This document shows positions 3,150-11,200 of a stretch of DNA of 64,000 bases, one piece after another. This DNA comes from Phoronis australis (taxonomy: Eukaryota > Animalia > Phoronida): contig NMRA01000089.1 in NCBI GenBank assembly GCA_002633005.1, positions 855,895 to 919,894 on the forward strand. Direction: 5' to 3'. A program made the translations under genes and the position numbers. Numbering within the stretch: position 1 is the stretch's first letter; each line of letters begins with the position of its first letter. The notes beneath the pieces were generated by a model. The model searched no databases. It was not told the DNA's origin and saw only the letters and a list, made by a program, of their open reading frames with translations.

Positions 3150-3635
3150 TTTCAAAGCCCTGAAGTAAGTTCAAATGTGACCAACAAACAACTTGAGACC
3201 AATTTTACAATAATAAATGGACTTAGTCAAAACCTTTTTTACTGTAAGCGTGCGTTTAGTCTCACTTTAAGGTTAGGTTTCTAATGTAGCTCAATGTTAC
3301 ATGTCTAGTCTTCAGGGCCTTTCATACTAACGTCGACGCGTCGATGGTTTGGGGAGTTGCGGTCAGTATGAACGCTTAACTCCGGTACTGGATCGTAGTT
3401 AAGAGCTCCAGTTAACATCGCAGTTAATAGGTTGATTTAAAGTGTAAATTGCAAGGTCTAAGTATGTTAAATTGTAATAATATTTTCAAGATACTGTTAG
3501 TTGGATATATCTTCTTCCAATTATCATGTTATTGTGTCTGTAGTTAAGTTAAAAAGCGAAAATTAAAAAAAAATCCGCGAAAAGTTGACCTTTGACACCG
3601 TGACATGGTGTTGGGGAACACAAACTAGATCAATA

Positions 3636-3650
3636 TCCCACAATGCAGTT
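3636..3650 (+). promoter_or_regulatory. ZNF143/Staf-like motif upstream of the THAP start codon
   Basis: TCCCACAATGCAGTT lies ~65 nt upstream of ATG 3713 and matches the TCCCAnAATGCA consensus; motif match only. Confidence 0.35.
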
Positions 3651-3712
3651 TACCGCCCATACAAAACAGTGGAAGACGAACAAGGAGGGTTCAATCTTGG
3701 CGTGATTTAGAC

Positions 3713-3959
3713 ATGGTACATCGGTGTGTGTGCGCCAACTGTGCTAACACCACCCAGGTTGAAGGCGTGACCCTATTTAGGTTTCCCAAAGACAAGCATC
3801 TGGCCGCGAAATGGCACGTTTTCGTGTGCACTGCTCGTCATTGTAAAATGACTGTCGAGTCGGCCAGTCTGTCGGAGCCGAAATATGCTCCGACCACTTT
3901 GAGGACGGCTGCTTCGACGACAAACATATCATGAAGTTTGAAGCTGGTCTTGTGAAAAG
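3713..3959 (+). pseudogene. Kolobok transposase exon 1, THAP zinc-finger domain, frameshifted
   Basis: MVHRCVCANCANTTQVEGVTLFRFPKDKHLAAKWHVFV has the CxxxxC, FRFP and W THAP hallmarks. After a frameshift at or after the AAAA run (3845-3848) another frame continues ...VGAEICSDHFEDGCFDDKHIMKFEAGLVK (CSxHF). Ends at donor AG|GTAAG (3960). Confidence 0.85.
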
Positions 3960-4480
3960 GTAAGTTATCTTCATAATTTATGGCTTATATCCATGACGCT
4001 TTCTCAGTGCTTGAACTATAACGATCTTTTTTCGCAATCACCATAGTTCTCGCGGTCAACAATTGCTGAGTGTTGCCGGTGGTATTTCTTTGGAATGTTG
4101 CCCAGTAGGCTATTTGTTGATTCAACTGTTCTTGGTGTTGTGTGTGTAGCAGCGCTAGTTGAGCATCATGTTGACCCAATGCAATTTCATTTGCTGATGG
4201 TTCTCAAAGTCAAGTCACGCGAAGTCAGTAAGGATCATTTAGGGTATCATATTTTTGAGAATCATTGTCTTCAGCCAAATTAGAGTGGAGATATACACCT
4301 GGTACTATGGGGAGAGCAGCACTTGGGGGGACAATACCATCAGCCCCCTATGGTGCACACCGCCCATGCCGATGGGCGGCCCAGCTCTGAAGTAACTACA
4401 TACATGTACTATAGCCCTGTTGTAGATGTGCTTCCGGTGAATCATATGAGCCTCTGTTAGCTACTCGCTAATGGGAAATT

Positions 4481-4552
4481 GCCTATTAGCTGAATGGTTA
4501 GCACGCTTGCCGGTTTTATGGGGGTCGTGGGTTCGATTCCTGAGTCGGGTAA
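4481..4552 (+). repeat. tRNA-derived SINE-like head or tRNA pseudogene inside the Kolobok element
   Basis: Pol III A-box TAGCTGAATGG (4487-4497) and B-box GGTTCGATTCC (4530-4540) at tRNA spacing; anticodon arm not clean. Confidence 0.55.
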
Positions 4553-4899
4553 TCTCGGCTATTACTACAGCCCCCCCCCCCCCACCCTACGAGGCTATGG
4601 TGCGCTTCAGAGACCACTGTATTTGAGCATCAGGAGGTTCTTTGTGGGGTTTTGTCAACCAAGTAATAGATGGTGGTGTGCTGACAAAAGTTTGAACTGT
4701 TCTAACGATGGTACTTAAGTTGCACGGTTTTGATTATTAAAGTAACCTGCTTCAAAAATAAAACAGGGTTAACTCTGGTTTTGGCCTTTGCTTGAAGGTT
4801 ATAAAAGTAGGCGAAAACTTGCACTTAGGTGACGTCGTGTTTAACTTAAATCATTGATTCAAAATGATTTTTACTTTAAATTGCAGTTGTGCTTTTCAG

Positions 4900-5081
4900 A
4901 GTATGTGAACGAAGTAAGGAAGAATACGTTACACTTGTTGCGAAATAAAAGAGAAGCCAGTGACCTCGAAATTTGTTTGGAAATTGACGCCCCTCCAATG
5001 CTGAGTGCTGGTGCTCCAGACGTGTCCAAGGAGGAGGCCGTGGCACGGATGAGGAGCCGATATCCAGACAAATTCAATTAG
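4900..5081 (+). pseudogene. Probable terminal exon of the Kolobok transposase
   Basis: Acceptor CTTTTCAG| at 4899, then EYVNEVRKNTLHLLRNKREASDLEICLEIDAPPMLSAGAPDVSKEEAVARMRSRYPDKFN*. The PPxL...KEEAVA..xSR(Y/F) ending resembles C-termini of THAP-DDE Kolobok proteins as I recall them. No DDE-core ORF is visible between 3960 and 4900. Confidence 0.6.
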
Positions 5082-5749
5082 ACTGCTTGTTTTGTCAATG
5101 GACAGTACTGATATTTCTTTCCATCACATACATGACAATGAATGATATTGGGGCACGAAAAGACTGACGACCCACACAGGTACCTTTTCGCCCCCTTACC
5201 GATGCATTATATGGGACGGCAACAGTTTACTGTTAATCAAATAAACCTAAAAGCTATGCCACAATATTTATAGTCATTATATTGAAGTAACATTGAAATG
5301 TTTCAATGTTAGAACATAGTATGTCGCAGGGTTTATACAAAGCGGACAGCCATATGGCACGCTCAAAAGTGTTTCACGATTTCCAATACTGGTACTATAA
5401 ATACTCTAGCATTGCTATCTGTACAGCTTTCAAAAAAAAACCCTTAAAACATTGGTAGTGATGAAAATATACATGGGTCGTCAGTCTTCTCGTGTCTGCC
5501 AATATCATTCAAATTGTACGACAGAATAATCATTTGCACAGAATCCCAACTCTACTGTCTAACATTTTCTTGCGAGTTTTTTTGCGAGTGGTCCAAGCAC
5601 TCTCTCCAGATTTCTCACTTCCTATACATGTGTATAATTTTGTGTGTTTTATACCATGTCATAGACATCTGAAGCTATTGCATACTGTAGCTTTTGGGTG
5701 GAAATTCAGTACTTTGCCACGTCATGGTAGTTAATGTCTTGTTGAATTA

Positions 5750-5887
5750 CAGTAGAACTCGGTAAGTTGGAGCCAGTGAGACAGATATTTCATCGAAGTC
5801 AAAGTTACTTGGAGGCGTTACAGGAATTAATGCATGCTAGCCTTTCTAGTTTCCAATGAAGCACTACCAATGTAACGAGTCCTACTG
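5750..5887. mobile_element. Tc1/mariner-pogo-like MITE (138 bp) nested in the Kolobok element
   Basis: TA|CAGTAGAACTCGGTAAGTTGG ... CCAATGTAACGAGTCCTACTG|TA: imperfect ~21-bp TIRs and a TA TSD. Confidence 0.7.
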
Positions 5888-6382
5888 TATAAGAAGAGGG
5901 CAGGAGATTCAGTCTCTACCTCAGACAATAGTCCAGATTTTTATGTAACAGCAATATTGTTGAATGTGTTCACTTGAAACTCACTAACAACTCCAGTGAG
6001 ACCAATTCCTAAGTAAACCATAACTGATGTTGAGTTTAGAGGTTTATAATGTAGTTCTAGTAACATTACACTTGTCATGACCATGTCACTATAAGTTCCT
6101 GAACATCAATATATGCTACTTTCTTTGTCAATTGTTTACCATTCTGAAAACACAGAAATCCATCATGGAATGCCAACTTCATTTTTGTACCACTGAGATT
6201 GCGCTGTGATTGCATTCGTTTGTTAGGATATTTGTTCTCTCTATGGAACTTGTCACTTATTTCAACTCGTCCAAAGTAGATACTCCCCGAGTCACAAGTT
6301 TTAGTAATAGAGTACTTAGGTAATGAGCTGGAGTTGGCATTCCAGGGATAAGACAACTCGATATATATATACATAAATGAAA

Positions 6383-6791
6383 CTAATAAGAAAACCCTTG
6401 AAACTCAAAGTCCTCCTCATTTCCCGGTGGAGGGTAAAAAGCTCTGATGCAGGCTACTGCGCATGCTGGAATTACAACACGGACAGTTCGTCCTAGGTGA
6501 CCATGCACCCATCTTTGGAACTGTCTGTAGGCTATGTGTCGCATCCTTTTATCAAAGGGTCCGTCATAGCCATCCGGATATTGGCTTTTATACTGCAACC
6601 ATGCAGTCTCCAAAACATCACGATTGATGCACACAGGTTGAAAACTTCCATGGTACACGATACATTTTTTTCTTCCGTTTAAGTTGTCCCTCTTCATTTC
6701 GTCCTCAAGTTTAGCAATAACTTTGTCGACTTCTTGACAACATACTCTTTCTTCAATGACTGCAGTAGTCTGACAGTTGTCACACGTGCAC
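6383..6791 (-). CDS. KolX / P2X7 cytoplasmic ballast-like Zn-binding protein, exon 2 of 2
   Basis: Acceptor ATCTTGCAG|G on - strand. Reads (W)CTCDNCQTTAVIEERVCCQE...KCIVYHGSFQPVCINRDVL...RMRHIAYRQFQRWVHGHLGRTVRVVIPACAVACIRAFYPPPGNEEDFEFQGFSY*. WCxCxxC, ExxCC, RHxAYRxxxxW and IPxCxVxxIRxx(F/Y)P...GF are diagnostic of the P2X7 C-terminal domain family. Confidence 0.9.
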
Positions 6792-7247
6792 CTGCAAGAT
6801 GTGACAATATGTATACATTACTTTAGTAAACATCAAAATGTCGAATTGAAAAAATTACTGATTTACCAAGAGTGTCTCGGCCAAATTAATTGAGGGTTTG
6901 CAATGACCTCAGTTTTCGAGAAGACTGATTGTTGAGCAGCGACCTGTTTAAAACAGAACAAAAATGAAACTAAATTCCAAAAAACAAGCTTTGAAACATC
7001 ACATAAATAGTAAAGATATTTACTTTTCATACAAATGAATACTGCTACACCCAGGGCAGTGGCAGATCATGCCTGGGGGATATATATATAGGAATGGACA
7101 TACTTAGTTTGATTTGCTGACACCTGATTCATTGATGGAGGGGTCTGTTTTGTTAATAATCGTGAATATTACAGTAAACATTTTTAAAAACTTCTCAATA
7201 TCCGATGCCTTCTATACTCTTTAGAAACTTTACCAGACGGTTCCTTC

Positions 7248-7391
7248 CCAAGTCAACTCGCACCCAAGCCATGTACCAATTTTCACAAATAACAGCAACA
7301 TTAGGTACATAGGCATGAAAGCATTGACTTACACAAACTAAACCTGGTTAGAAAAACGTGTGTACATTGCTCTGGGTCCAAGTTGACTTGG
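7248..7391. repeat. Small inverted-repeat element (MITE-like) in the KolX intron
   Basis: CCAAGTCAACTCGCACCCAAG..ATGTAC vs GTACAT..CTGGGTCCAAGTTGACTTGG (imperfect inverted pair); no clear TSD. Confidence 0.45.
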
Positions 7392-7902
7392 CCCTAGAGT
7401 ATGAAAATGAAGTGACCTGTTTTATAACCCATGGAATTCCCTTCAGCCCCCAGGTAAGAAAGTCTAAGTTGCAAAATTGCAATTCTTTTTTCCTCTTGTT
7501 TACACTACACAGTTGAGTATTGGGAGGTGGTTCTCATTATTTCCCATGCATACATTTATTCACTCACTAGTAAGACTGAGCTCAGAGGAGTAGGAGACAA
7601 CTTCGTACAATGCCCAATTGTCTGCCAGTGAAAGCCAGGATTCTAACCCGAGTCTCACAAACAAGAGTCCGGGGCCCAAACCAATGCGCCACTGTCCAAA
7701 AATAATCAAAGACCACACATTGTTGAGTGATTTGCGTAAGTGCAACGAGTCCCATTTTTTATCACTGAAACTGGTACTTATCCACGGCTGAAAAATGATT
7801 CATCAGTGGGGACAAGAGCGCCTGGGAGTGACCGGTAAAGCTACTGAACTTAGACCAAGTAGTAATTTGCGGTAGTATGATGCATATTTATAATATTCTT
7901 AC

Positions 7903-8177
7903 CAGTCACTTACATTCTGTCGCAACTCCTGCGCACCTTCTGCCCGTTGATATTCACTGCACAAACCGGCTGGGGCTGGATCGTCGTCAACCGGAGCAAG
8001 GGGATCGAGGGAAAACGGTTCTACTAGAGAGAAGGTGTGAGCACAAATTGTTCCTATGGGGTCTGTCGCCTCCTCCTCCACATCCGAAACGTCAGAATCG
8101 TCTGAAAACTCCACCTGACCCTCCCTGTATCTTTCAAAATATTCTTCATCTACGCTGCTGTACTCACGGGGATCCAT
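7903..8177 (-). CDS. KolX / P2X7 ballast-like protein, exon 1 of 2 (acidic N-terminus)
   Basis: ATG at 8177; MDPREYSSVDEEYFERY...VEPFSLDP...RQNVSD. Donor TG|GTAAG is phase 2 and joins exon 2 to give W-C-T-C. 275+409 = 684 nt = 227 aa plus stop, with no disruptions. Confidence 0.85.
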
Positions 8178-8227
8178 ATTGTTTTCTTTGTGTTCCCCAA
8201 CACCACGTCACAGATGTGTAACGAAGG

Positions 8228-8268
8228 AAAATGGCGCCGTTTCTATTTTCCGTTACAACAATGGCGTT
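8228..8268 (-). promoter_or_regulatory. YY1-like motifs upstream of the KolX start
   Basis: AAAATGGCG (8228-8236) and CAATGGCG (~8259) in a CpG-richer patch 50-90 nt upstream of the - strand ATG; motif match only. Confidence 0.35.
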
Positions 8269-11200
8269 ACAACGCCACGGCAACAAATATGTAAATAACT
8301 TTTTATAGCGACGTACAATTCAGTTAATGTTAAGAATATAGCAAGAATAATTATCAACACGAATTTAGAGCATATCGTTGTTCAGATTGGTTGAGACCTT
8401 GCAATTTACACTTTAAGACTGCAGCGTCGACGCTGCAGTATGAACGCTTAACTCCGGTCCAATCGAAGTTATCGCCAGGTGCCACTGTTATCGTCAACAG
8501 TTACAGAGTAGTGCCGTTACTAATAACTACTTATTTTTTGCTTTAATGATAACCAATCGATTTAAAAATGAGTTTAATTTCATTTAGCACATTTAAATGT
8601 TCCAAATTGTCACATTGAAAAAAATCTTAGCGTGCAGCGCTACATTGTGATAACTTCGATGACGTCAGCATCACCAACCCTTTACTTCGATGGTCATTAA
8701 CTACCGAAGCCAGTATGAACGGTCCAGTTAACTGCGCTGTTTACATCGACGCTCCGGAGCTCAGACCGGAGTTAAGTCAATATGAAAGGGCCTTAAGACA
8801 CAAATATGCAACCAGTTACTGGTGCCCATTTTATCAAAGGTCAAAGTTCAGGCCTTAACTTTAACAGTGTTACTTTGACTTTTATTTACTCCCAGTGTAT
8901 TAACATGACCCGGTAAAAAGGTTAAGTTTGAATTAAAAACAATGGCTAATTATCAATGGTAGCATTTTGCTCTGATGATAAAAAATGAAGCTGGCTTTTG
9001 ATGAAGTGAGCCTCAGTCTTGTGGAAACGTGGCTTCTAATAGAAGCTTTCTGGTACAGCTGACAGAAAACATGGCTAACATTTAGCAGAAGCCAGTTTGC
9101 AAATTAGCAGAGAAGTGATTTTGCAGCAGAGGCAAATTTGGTCAAATTTCCACAAACTGAGTCTCTTTGTGGAAAAAATGATGTACGACTTTCTGTCAAC
9201 CCACCGCATGCTTAGCAACAGAATGGTGAGAAAGTGGGTTTGTGTTGGGGTATAAGAGATTTGAATTATCTTATCTAACTTGCCTAGGATGTTTATCATG
9301 TCTTCAACAAATAATAACTTGTTTACAGCTGTCATACAGCATCGTCTTGCACTTACCAAATTTTGACCAAGTGCTGGCTATATTTCTTGAGAAGTTCTTA
9401 AAAAGCAAAGTCACTGGATGCACTTAAAAATCCAGTCTAGTTAGTGTTTCTTCAAAGTCAGGTGTAGAACACTGTGAACATGAGCCTCAGCTCATAAACC
9501 AACTATAAATTTAAAAATAATGATGGACACAATGCAATAATCTCCAAAAAGGAGTGTAAGGTAAAGATGGATAGGAACAATTTTAAAGTTTGAAAAAACT
9601 GTCACCAGTAAAAGGTTCTTCCCAACGTCACGGACATAAATCTATGAACAGAAGTTTCCTCATGGAACTCACTGGATATGAGTCGTTGATTTACATAGGA
9701 CTATTTTCCTGACGAAACTTGCCTCTTAAACTTTATAGTTCTATTATCACAATAAAGTGTATTTCTAAGTTCACCAAAGGATAACAAATATTAGGGATTA
9801 ACATGAAAATTCCACTTTAAATCTAGAAGTAATCCACGTAGCATTTTATATAATTCATGTTGGGTTGTTTATCTCCAGACACTCTGACATTGTCCACGGC
9901 CACACTGACGATAAGCTATCCCTCCAATTGAAATCAATCGGCTTATCGAGATATTAACACCTGACTGTTATGACTAGCCGCCTGTGTGATCTTTGGCTGT
10001 CAAAACAGGTATCCCTGCCCACCTTGACCATTGATTCCAATAGATTAATGATGACAGCAAGCCATACCCTGCCTCTCATATGTTTGCCTTATACTTTATT
10101 GATAAGCCTGGGTTGCATAATTTGTTTATCAATGATGTAATTACAAACTAGGGTCAATACATGTCAATGTTGACTGTTAAAACATTTCTTTTATGACAGA
10201 TTAACAGCGGTTGATGCATTGTTCCGCCAAAAATTTTTCTCGCGTGACCTCTACCATCTGATCATGTTGATTAATTATGTCAGTGAGTGCGGTTTAACTG
10301 GCAATAAATAAATATACATGGTTTTGGCATGCATTTCTGTGGGTTTTTCTTGTCCTTTAGGGAAGTTGACATACAGTTGACTGTTGGCAATTTATCGGTA
10401 GGTATTGGTGTTGAAATTACAAGGCAAAAATCAAGTCAAAGTTTAATCAAACTGAACTATCAATTATAATTTTTATTTGCTATAGTTTTTTTTTTCTGTG
10501 TTCCACAAATCTGTAGCACACAGGGTGTGCTCTTTCAATACACATTGTGTGTTGCCTGTAGCTGATTCTTTAAAAGCAAAGAATTTTACTCTCATAGTAA
10601 ATTTGTTTTTGAGGTATTAGCAAACAGTTTGCCCATTTCTTGGTATTGGCTGGTAGGATGTGTTGTTACAACGCCTCACCCAACCTGACATAACCTCTTG
10701 TTTATTCACGCTCAGTTTCACATTGTTGTGAGGAATACCTTGGATAGCATGACTGAAAAAATAACCCATCCCGCTTCTCCCACACAGGTCAGAGGGCAAA
10801 GGTCATTGCCTGACCCAAAATGAGAGTGCTGTGTTTGTGACAAACAGTAGTCTTTTCATGTGTAGGCAGTCATTAGTTATATGAAACTGACCAAGATAGA
10901 TTACACAAACAAGTATCCTGATTCAAACAACAATTGTGTGGCATTGTTTCCTGATTATGTAAGTTACAGCAGTGTTGTGGAGTGAATGAACTGAAGGGTG
11001 AGAGTGTGGTTGATATGACTCAGGCTAAGGTACTGTAGTTTGGTTGAAACTGTTCAGTTAGGCTTAAGTTTTAATGAGGAATGATTCTATTTGAGCTTCT
11101 AAACCTGGATTTTTATGTTTGAAAATAACAAGGGAACTTCGAGGGGGTTTATTGAAACATCTGGTTTCCATAGTCTGACATTGTATCTGAGATTTTTATC

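What the first reader, a model, noticed from the sequence alone, without database searches (positions are those of the whole stretch)
3441..8412. Kolobok transposon carrying an intact P2X7-ballast-like (KolX) gene while its transposase is destroyed
Seen: perfect 19-bp TIRs, a TTAA TSD, a frameshifted THAP exon, an orphan last exon, no DDE core, and an uninterrupted convergent two-exon 227-aa ORF. Known: Kolobok elements pair a THAP-DDE transposase with an accessory protein related to the P2X7 intracellular domain, whose function is unresolved. Inference: this is a non-autonomous lineage that lost the catalytic gene but kept the accessory gene. KolX may be under selection (helper in trans, or early domestication), or the copy may simply be young. 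The family type is described; this asymmetric retention is the notable part.
Basis: partly seen in the sequence, partly recalled or inferred. Interest (0 to 1): 0.85.

Follow-up and report, generated by a model that had tools for sequence, protein, structure and literature searches.

The report
Non-autonomous Kolobok still carrying KolX
This is an internally deleted jumping gene of the known Kolobok type whose small second gene (KolX, a relative of the P2X7 receptor's zinc-binding tail) is still intact and is spliced in near-identical copies; a close sister version and a more distant relative carry stops and frameshifts in that gene, so it likely survives here through youth rather than selection.

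Summary
The element has perfect 19-bp TIRs (AG..CT), TTAA on both sides, a frameshifted THAP exon, an orphan transposase last exon, no DDE core, and a two-exon 227-aa KolX ORF (Pfam P2RX7_C; top 14 fold hits all P2X7). It is a non-autonomous derivative of a Kol0 Kolobok, a described type (PMC9587614); this scan has met Kol0/KolX elements in other genomes. RNA reads from the host species confirm the KolX splice (15, 7 and 86 reads) and show the THAP exon spliced straight to the last exon. A second right flank shows at least one more insertion. Selective retention is not supported. About a third of KolX reads in the deepest run carry R176-stop and a 1-base frameshift. The most abundant contig of an 88%-identical subfamily has two stops and two gaps. 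The window's own exon-1 changes are 3 missense and 1 silent, and no read at those sites matches its allele beyond stray single reads. At 0.4-1% divergence an unselected KolX stays intact roughly 50-80% of the time. Purifying selection is clear only between subfamilies (dN/dS about 0.19). A weak silent bias among close copies (4 silent, 1 missense, 1 stop) leaves a small opening.

The parts
3437..3440 (.). TTAA target-site duplication, left
   Evidence: reads of uninterrupted copies of the surrounding repeat continue after a single TTAA (joint 3440->8434)
3441..3459 (+). left terminal inverted repeat, 19 bp, starts AG
3600..3624 (+). sub-terminal inverted repeat, 25 bp, 96% to 8187-8211; upstream of the THAP start codon; likely a shared promoter or transposase-binding motif (inferred)
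   Evidence: full-length relatives L023, L025, L053 and L028 also have sub-terminal matches between their two ends within about 210 bp
3713..3959 (+). transposase exon 1 (THAP domain), frameshifted; the ATG frame stops after 73 aa
   Evidence: spliced in RNA
3960..4899 (+). 940-nt GT-AG intron, likely fused from the first and last transposase introns when the catalytic exons were deleted
   Evidence: joint 3959->4900 in 2, 4 and 59 reads; no DDE remnant
4418..4569 (.). high-copy repeat (SINE-like by eye) inserted in that intron; shared by the expressed sister copy
   Evidence: depth spike and loose ends at 4418 and 4569; no ARAGORN or Rfam hit
4900..5081 (+). orphan last exon of the transposase (C-terminal ~59 aa), open, but out of frame with the downstream THAP frame
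5154..5494 (.). MITE-like segment with 21-bp inverted ends in the 3' region between the genes
   Evidence: I6; not followed up
6383..6791 (-). KolX exon 2: P2X7-ballast-like zinc domain (C93, C95, C98, C109, C110, C135, C202; R176-H177)
6792..7902 (-). KolX intron, 1111 nt, GT-AG; holds a further repeat starting near 7561 that is sometimes used as an alternative exon
   Evidence: (joint 6788->7565 in 4 and 8 reads)
7903..8177 (-). KolX exon 1: acidic, poorly conserved N-terminus; the window copy has a second donor-like 9-mer (GTAAGT core) 11 nt upstream of the used donor, absent from the reads
8187..8211 (-). sub-terminal inverted repeat, 9 nt upstream of the KolX start codon
8394..8412 (-). 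right terminal inverted repeat, 19 bp
8413..8416 (.). TTAA target-site duplication, right
   Evidence: a different flank follows 8417 in 49 reads of X11 and one contig of X5
3308..8799 (.). host repeat (about 0.5 kb without the insert, 24-bp imperfect inverted ends, 96-bp internal unit) into which the Kolobok inserted

Best explanation
This is a young, non-autonomous deletion derivative of a Kol0-type Kolobok DNA transposon whose KolX gene is intact, likely because the deletion fell inside the transposase gene and too little time has passed for KolX to decay, not because KolX is protected. Shown: ends, target duplication, THAP frameshift, loss of the catalytic exons, splicing of both genes in the species, a second insertion site, and dead KolX versions among relatives. 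Inferred: a founder lost its internal transposase exons through breakpoints in the first and last introns, picked up the THAP frameshift, and was then copied in trans by a related transposase that recognises its TIRs. The promoters near each end still fire, giving convergent transcripts that meet near 6.0-6.1 kb. KolX itself is most likely a small two-zinc helper of transposition in active elements, by analogy with mudrB of maize MuDR; it is under purifying selection only while it travels with a working transposase and drifts in copies like this one.
For: (1) Sister version with dead KolX: in run X11, R176-stop in 96 of 301 plus-mate reads (51 start places) and an uncompensated 1-base deletion at 6678 in 65 of 208 reads (43 start places). 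Their depth (about 65-105 reads) matches that of the X11 haplotype read through the deleted interior (indels at 4324, 4581 and 4606 in 93-105 reads), so it is likely a sister non-autonomous copy; phase is not shown. (2) The most abundant contig of an ~88%-identical subfamily (X1 record 6) has L129-stop, R176-stop, C146Y and two 1-base gaps. (3) Window-specific KolX exon-1 changes against essentially all reads: R4S, D64V, L72S, V89V, dN/dS 0.81, P 0.62 against neutrality; the silent one creates a competing donor that would end the protein at 91 aa if used. (4) A rough neutral model gives P(intact) 0.78 at 0.4% and 0.51 at 1% divergence (indel rates assumed). (5) No indel is listed in the THAP exon among the 12 best-supported of 57 although X11 depth there is about 195, so the frameshift is likely ancestral: one event. 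(6) Among 74 related metagenome loci KolX is intact in 32, broken in 28, partial in 14; both asymmetries occur: L015 and L027 have intact KolX with a broken transposase, L042 a broken KolX with an open 584-aa transposase frame. (7) Between subfamilies KolX is conserved: 15 silent and 9 changed codons among differences seen in 2 or more contigs; dN/dS 0.19 over 37 listed rows.
Against: KolX is a real spliced mRNA, with exon-2 depth 2.1 to 5.1 times intron depth in three runs. The close X11 haplotype differs from the window by 4 silent, 1 missense and 1 nonsense change in exon 2 (one-sided P 0.017, or 0.03-0.10 allowing transition bias; pooled with exon 1, P 0.04-0.21), which hints at past selection inside the family. 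Window-type exon 2 is identical in contigs of X1 and X3 (0 differences). The element took several nested insertions, none in KolX exons. No autonomous partner was found; no genome was held, and two protein searches plus one profile-library search with transposase fragments returned nothing. Counts are small and come from transcribed copies only.
Confidence: 0.72

Rival explanations
1. KolX is kept by selection on the non-autonomous family: copies that make KolX are mobilised better (cis preference, or KolX is limiting for a transposase supplied in trans), so source copies stay intact while daughter copies decay after insertion.
For: Spliced KolX mRNA; silent bias between the window type and the X11 haplotype, 4 silent, 1 missense, 1 stop; window-type exon 2 unchanged in X1 and X3 contigs; stops in inserted copies are expected even under this model.
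Against: The bias is weak and post hoc, and 3 of the 6 changes are at CpG. The dead transposase pieces show the same tilt: last exon 2 silent and 0 missense, THAP 1 and 1. An autonomous partner would bring its own KolX. The window copy's own changes look neutral.
Confidence: 0.15
2. Early domestication: this locus, or one sister locus, supplies KolX to the host, as proposed for zebrafish Nanor.
For: Spliced expression in three runs; precedent for Nanor and P2X7 (PMC9587614, passages).
Against: Perfect TIRs and target duplication, more than one insertion site, and a third of the transcripts in X11 non-coding. The window's exon-1 allele is essentially absent from the reads (e.g. 0 of 147 plus-mate reads at 7911, 1 of 163 at 8168 in X11). 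PMC6004289 (passages) takes non-repetitiveness plus purifying selection as marks of domestication; neither is shown. Junction reads vary from 7 to 86 between runs of similar size.
Confidence: 0.05
3. The haplotypes are mostly alleles of one or two loci in a polymorphic animal, and the element is an isolated dead copy rather than a family mobilised after the deletion.
For: Only one alternative flank is directly seen; reads are short and unphased; no genome was held.
Against: The alternative flank follows the TIR and TTAA exactly, in two studies (X11 reads, X5 contig), and its consensus agreement of 0.63 suggests more than one flank. Nearly all X11 reads at the right end go into it, and X11 covers the deleted interior continuously.
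Confidence: 0.08

Closest known systems
Kolobok superfamily, Kol0 (Kolobok0) lineage, type Kolobok-1_XT: DDD/E transposase plus KolX (PMC9587614; passages read)
   Same: TTAA target duplication, 5'-RR and YY-3' ends, TIRs, THAP-led transposase remnant, KolX with ballast-like cysteines. Same convergent layout as the full-length 5.5-kb relatives L023, L025 and L053.
   Different: Catalytic core deleted and THAP frameshifted, so it cannot move itself. KolX is only 52-54% identical to the nearest database proteins; nearest on the tree is an Owenia fusiformis protein (92/92, below the tool's strong-support mark). Repbase and Dfam could not be searched.
Nanor and the P2X7 cytoplasmic ballast (ZCD) domain (PMC7016195, PMC9587614; passages read)
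   Same: The three cysteine clusters and the R546-H547-equivalent pair are present; top 14 Foldseek hits are all P2X7 (E 0.009-0.07, TM about 0.45).
   Different: Those are host genes. This one still sits between intact TIRs, has more than one copy, and has decaying relatives. Zinc and GDP binding were not tested.
Maize MuDR with mudrA and mudrB (PMC3276141; passages read)
   Same: Works like it: a transposase plus a small accessory gene of unclear function, with promoters in the terminal repeats able to drive convergent transcription. That MuDR deletion derivatives can keep mudrB alone is recalled, not read here.
   Different: Different superfamily and target duplication; the accessory proteins were not compared and are not known to be related.
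Drosophila KP-type deleted P elements (recalled; search listing only)
   Same: An internally deleted element still transcribing its THAP exon.
   Different: Here THAP is frameshifted, so no intact DNA-binding repressor is predicted.

Membership tests
Kolobok superfamily | TTAA target-site duplication | tested here: met
Kolobok superfamily | termini 5'-RR and YY-3' with TIRs | tested here: met
   AG...CT, 19-bp perfect TIR
Kolobok superfamily (autonomous element) | DDD/E catalytic core with H2CH motif | tested here: not met
   no remnant by tblastn of 11 ORF pieces from related loci; hence filed as a non-autonomous derivative, not an autonomous member
Kolobok superfamily | N-terminal THAP domain and homologous transposase C-terminus | tested here: met
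   as remnants: Pfam THAP in two frames; C-terminal profile E 1e-4
Kol0 lineage | KolX accessory protein with ballast fold and 7 conserved cysteines | tested here: met
   Pfam P2RX7_C E 7.6e-14; cysteines present; fold hits P2X7 at E 0.009-0.07, model pLDDT 70.6
Kol0 lineage | placement by DDD/E-core phylogeny, or match to a Repbase consensus | not testable with these tools
   the core is deleted; no Repbase or Dfam library on hand
Non-autonomous mobilised family | more than one insertion with intact ends and a shared internal deletion | tested here: inconclusive
   one other right flank and at least three haplotypes are seen, but unphased and without a genome
Domesticated KolX (Nanor-like host gene) | single copy, no close broken copies | tested here: not met
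   second flank and stop/frameshift versions
Domesticated KolX (Nanor-like host gene) | purifying selection at an orthologous locus across species | not testable with these tools
   no genome held for the host or relatives

The most novel reading that the evidence does not exclude
A transposase-dead Kolobok family that is selected to keep making KolX, because KolX acts on its own element or limits mobilisation in trans: a natural helper-only transposon that would expose what the ancestor of the P2X7 ballast domain does.
Probability: 0.15. Interest if true: 0.6.

Novelty: new member of a known kind. Interest (0 to 1): 0.25.

Why it matters
KolX is the proposed source of the P2X7 ballast domain and of Nanor, and its job in transposition is untested in the papers found. 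A transcribed, spliced, KolX-only derivative is a convenient natural reagent. On present evidence it is an ordinary deletion derivative, and the data add only that KolX is conserved between subfamilies and decays within them, as a transposon gene should. It would matter more if copy-level data showed selection after loss of the transposase.

Tried and rejected
No whole genome was held, so copies were not counted and no autonomous partner was sought in DNA. Searches with the last exon and the THAP start found no homologue; these are short queries and the blanks are weak evidence. A single-sequence scan of metagenome contigs and an alignment scan of viral contigs found no relatives; the alignment scan of metagenome contigs found 74. 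Cluster membership of the four homologues could not be looked up. A KolX-transposase complex prediction was not run, so binding is untested. ARAGORN and Rfam found nothing in the element; TRF found no tandem array in the host repeat. Run search listed no holder on record as RNA; the RNA evidence comes from laying same-species raw reads. X1 and X3 are guessed as DNA, but X3 holds a spliced junction, so I treat them as likely transcript-derived and draw no copy number from depth. L021 (intact KolX, element match ends inside the transposase) was considered as a parallel case and set aside, since a mis-assembly or an insertion cannot be excluded. My first variant-effect script had exon 2 off by one base; exon-2 effects are from the corrected. 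An assembly error as the cause of the THAP frameshift was rejected by inference only (no such indel among the best-supported rows).
Full report
Observation. The element runs 3441-8412 between perfect 19-bp TIRs starting AG, with TTAA on both sides; the TIR-plus-TTAA 23-mer occurs twice in the window and 0 of 100 shuffles gave two matches. On the plus strand a THAP exon (ATG 3713, donor 3960) matches Pfam THAP in two frames. An orphan exon at 4900-5081 is the best of 1608 window segments against a profile of 14 transposase C-termini from related loci, E 1e-4 (four internal-exon or noise rows were dropped from the first profile of 17 and one true C-terminus added). Eleven ORF pieces from related loci find no catalytic remnant in the element. 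On the minus strand a two-exon ORF (8177-7903, 6791-6383) gives 227 aa.

Identity. Exon 2 matches Pfam P2RX7_C at E 7.6e-14. Its best PDB sequence hits are P2X7 (E 0.005-0.1), and an AlphaFold model (pLDDT 70.6, N-terminal cysteine stretch low confidence) has P2X7 as its top 14 fold hits, none below E 0.001. The three cysteine clusters and the RH pair described in PMC7016195 (passages) are present. PMC9587614 (passages; supplements searched for three terms, its alignment figure S6 not seen) defines Kolobok by TTAA and RR..YY ends, and Kol0 by a DDD/E transposase plus KolX with the ballast fold. An alignment scan gave 74 related metagenome loci. L023, L025 and L053 are full 5.5-kb elements with TTAA-flanked AG-starting TIRs, KolX on one strand and a convergent THAP-led transposase on the other, and with sub-terminal similarity between their ends, like the 25-bp repeat that precedes both start codons here. 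In L023 the transposase spans 2733 nt; here 1369 nt remain, 940 of them intron. The element is therefore a non-autonomous derivative of a Kol0 Kolobok. The host is an animal; a RIN1-like/VPS9 gene lies further along the window.

Expression. Raw RNA reads of three runs with the same species label as the best holder, and one contig set, were laid on the element. The KolX junction appears in 15, 7 and 86 reads on the expected strand, and exon-2 depth is 2.1, 4.6 and 5.1 times intron depth. The THAP exon is spliced directly to the last exon in 2, 4 and 59 reads; the ATG frame ends after 73 aa and the downstream THAP frame is out of phase with the last exon. The two transcripts thin out toward each other near 6.0-6.1 kb. 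The reads are not from the window's own allele: at four exon-1 sites essentially all reads carry another base (X11 plus-mate: 147 of 147, 154 of 154, 140 of 141, 162 of 163). A different flank follows the right TIR and TTAA in 49 X11 reads and one X5 contig, so at least one other insertion exists. Only the best-supported rows were shown (40 of 462 substitutions, 12 of 57 indels).

Test of selective retention. The second lay covered KolX exon 2 (40 of 55 substitution rows and all 3 indel rows shown). Against retention: X11 carries R176-stop in 96 of 301 plus-mate reads and an uncompensated 1-base deletion at 6678 in 65 of 208 reads (product 177 aa). Their depth matches the haplotype that is read through the whole deleted element, so this is likely a sister non-autonomous copy with dead KolX; phase is not shown. 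The most abundant contig of an ~88%-identical subfamily has two stops, C146Y and two gaps. The window's own exon-1 changes are 3 missense and 1 silent (dN/dS 0.81), and the silent one creates a competing donor. About 19 window-specific substitutions are visible in the listed rows (about 0.4%, a lower bound); a rough neutral model leaves the ORF intact with probability 0.78 at 0.4% and 0.51 at 1%, falling to 0.25 at 2%. The THAP frameshift seems shared with the sister haplotype, so transposase death is one founder event. In the related loci KolX is intact in 32, broken in 28 and partial in 14 of 74 (many are likely redundant or collapsed assemblies), and both asymmetries occur. For retention: the close haplotype's exon-2 differences are 4 silent, 1 missense and 1 stop (P 0.017, or 0.03-0.10 with transition bias), window-type exon 2 is unchanged in X1 and X3 contigs, and nested insertions avoid the KolX exons. 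The dead transposase pieces show a similar tilt (3 silent, 1 missense), so the signal is not specific to KolX. Between subfamilies selection is clear (dN/dS 0.19 over 37 rows; 15 silent and 9 changed codons among shared differences; P at most 4e-4 under any transition bias for 9 of 27).

Mechanism. Shown: anatomy, splicing, a second site, dead relatives. Inferred: deletion between the first and last introns, frameshift in the founder, copying in trans, promoters near both ends. KolX most likely helps transposition of active elements as a small zinc protein, by analogy with mudrB (PMC3276141, passages); binding to the transposase, zinc and GDP were not tested. I put 0.72 on youth plus deletion geometry, 0.15 on helper selection, 0.05 on domestication and 0.08 on an isolated dead copy.

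Novelty. The Kol0/KolX pairing and its link to P2X7 are published. Six library searches returned no paper describing a KolX-only non-autonomous family, judged from listings and the passages read; Repbase and Dfam were not searchable and may already hold one. Earlier notes of this scan report Kol0/KolX elements in other genomes (unchecked AI notes), none for this sequence or genome. Verdict: new member of a known kind, interest 0.25.

Noticed in passing
window 3308-3440 and 8417-8799: The Kolobok sits inside a ~0.5-kb high-copy repeat with 24-bp imperfect inverted ends and a 96-bp internal unit; reads show uninterrupted copies and copies with more tandem units.
   Followed up: partly
window 7908-7913: A window-specific silent change creates a GTAAGT donor 11 nt upstream of the KolX donor; its use would cut the protein to 91 aa. 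Not seen in reads, which all carry the other base.
   Followed up: partly
window 6360-6652, run X6: A run labelled as another organism holds one low-depth contig (3.7) with 1 difference in 293 bases of KolX exon 2; contamination, mislabel, close relative or transfer cannot be told apart.
   Followed up: no
window 6539-6541: The same CpG nonsense change at the arginine matching P2X7's GDP-contact R546 appears in both the close haplotype and the distant subfamily.
   Followed up: partly
window 5154-5494, 6166-6344, 7248-7391, 7561-7700: Several short inverted-repeat segments and repeats nested in non-coding parts of the element; the one starting near 7561 is sometimes spliced to KolX exon 2.
   Followed up: no
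window 31753-54778 (+): Host gene with RIN1-like and VPS9 domains and two very long open frames (389 and 817 aa), likely a RIN-family Rab5 exchange factor.
   Followed up: partly
L023:1327-6835, L025:1178-6687, L018, L022: Apparently intact 5.5-kb two-gene Kol0 elements with ~200-bp imperfect terminal repeats; candidates for testing KolX function.
   Followed up: partly
window about 15.9-16.7 kb: Assembly gap; the window holds 797 N.
   Followed up: no
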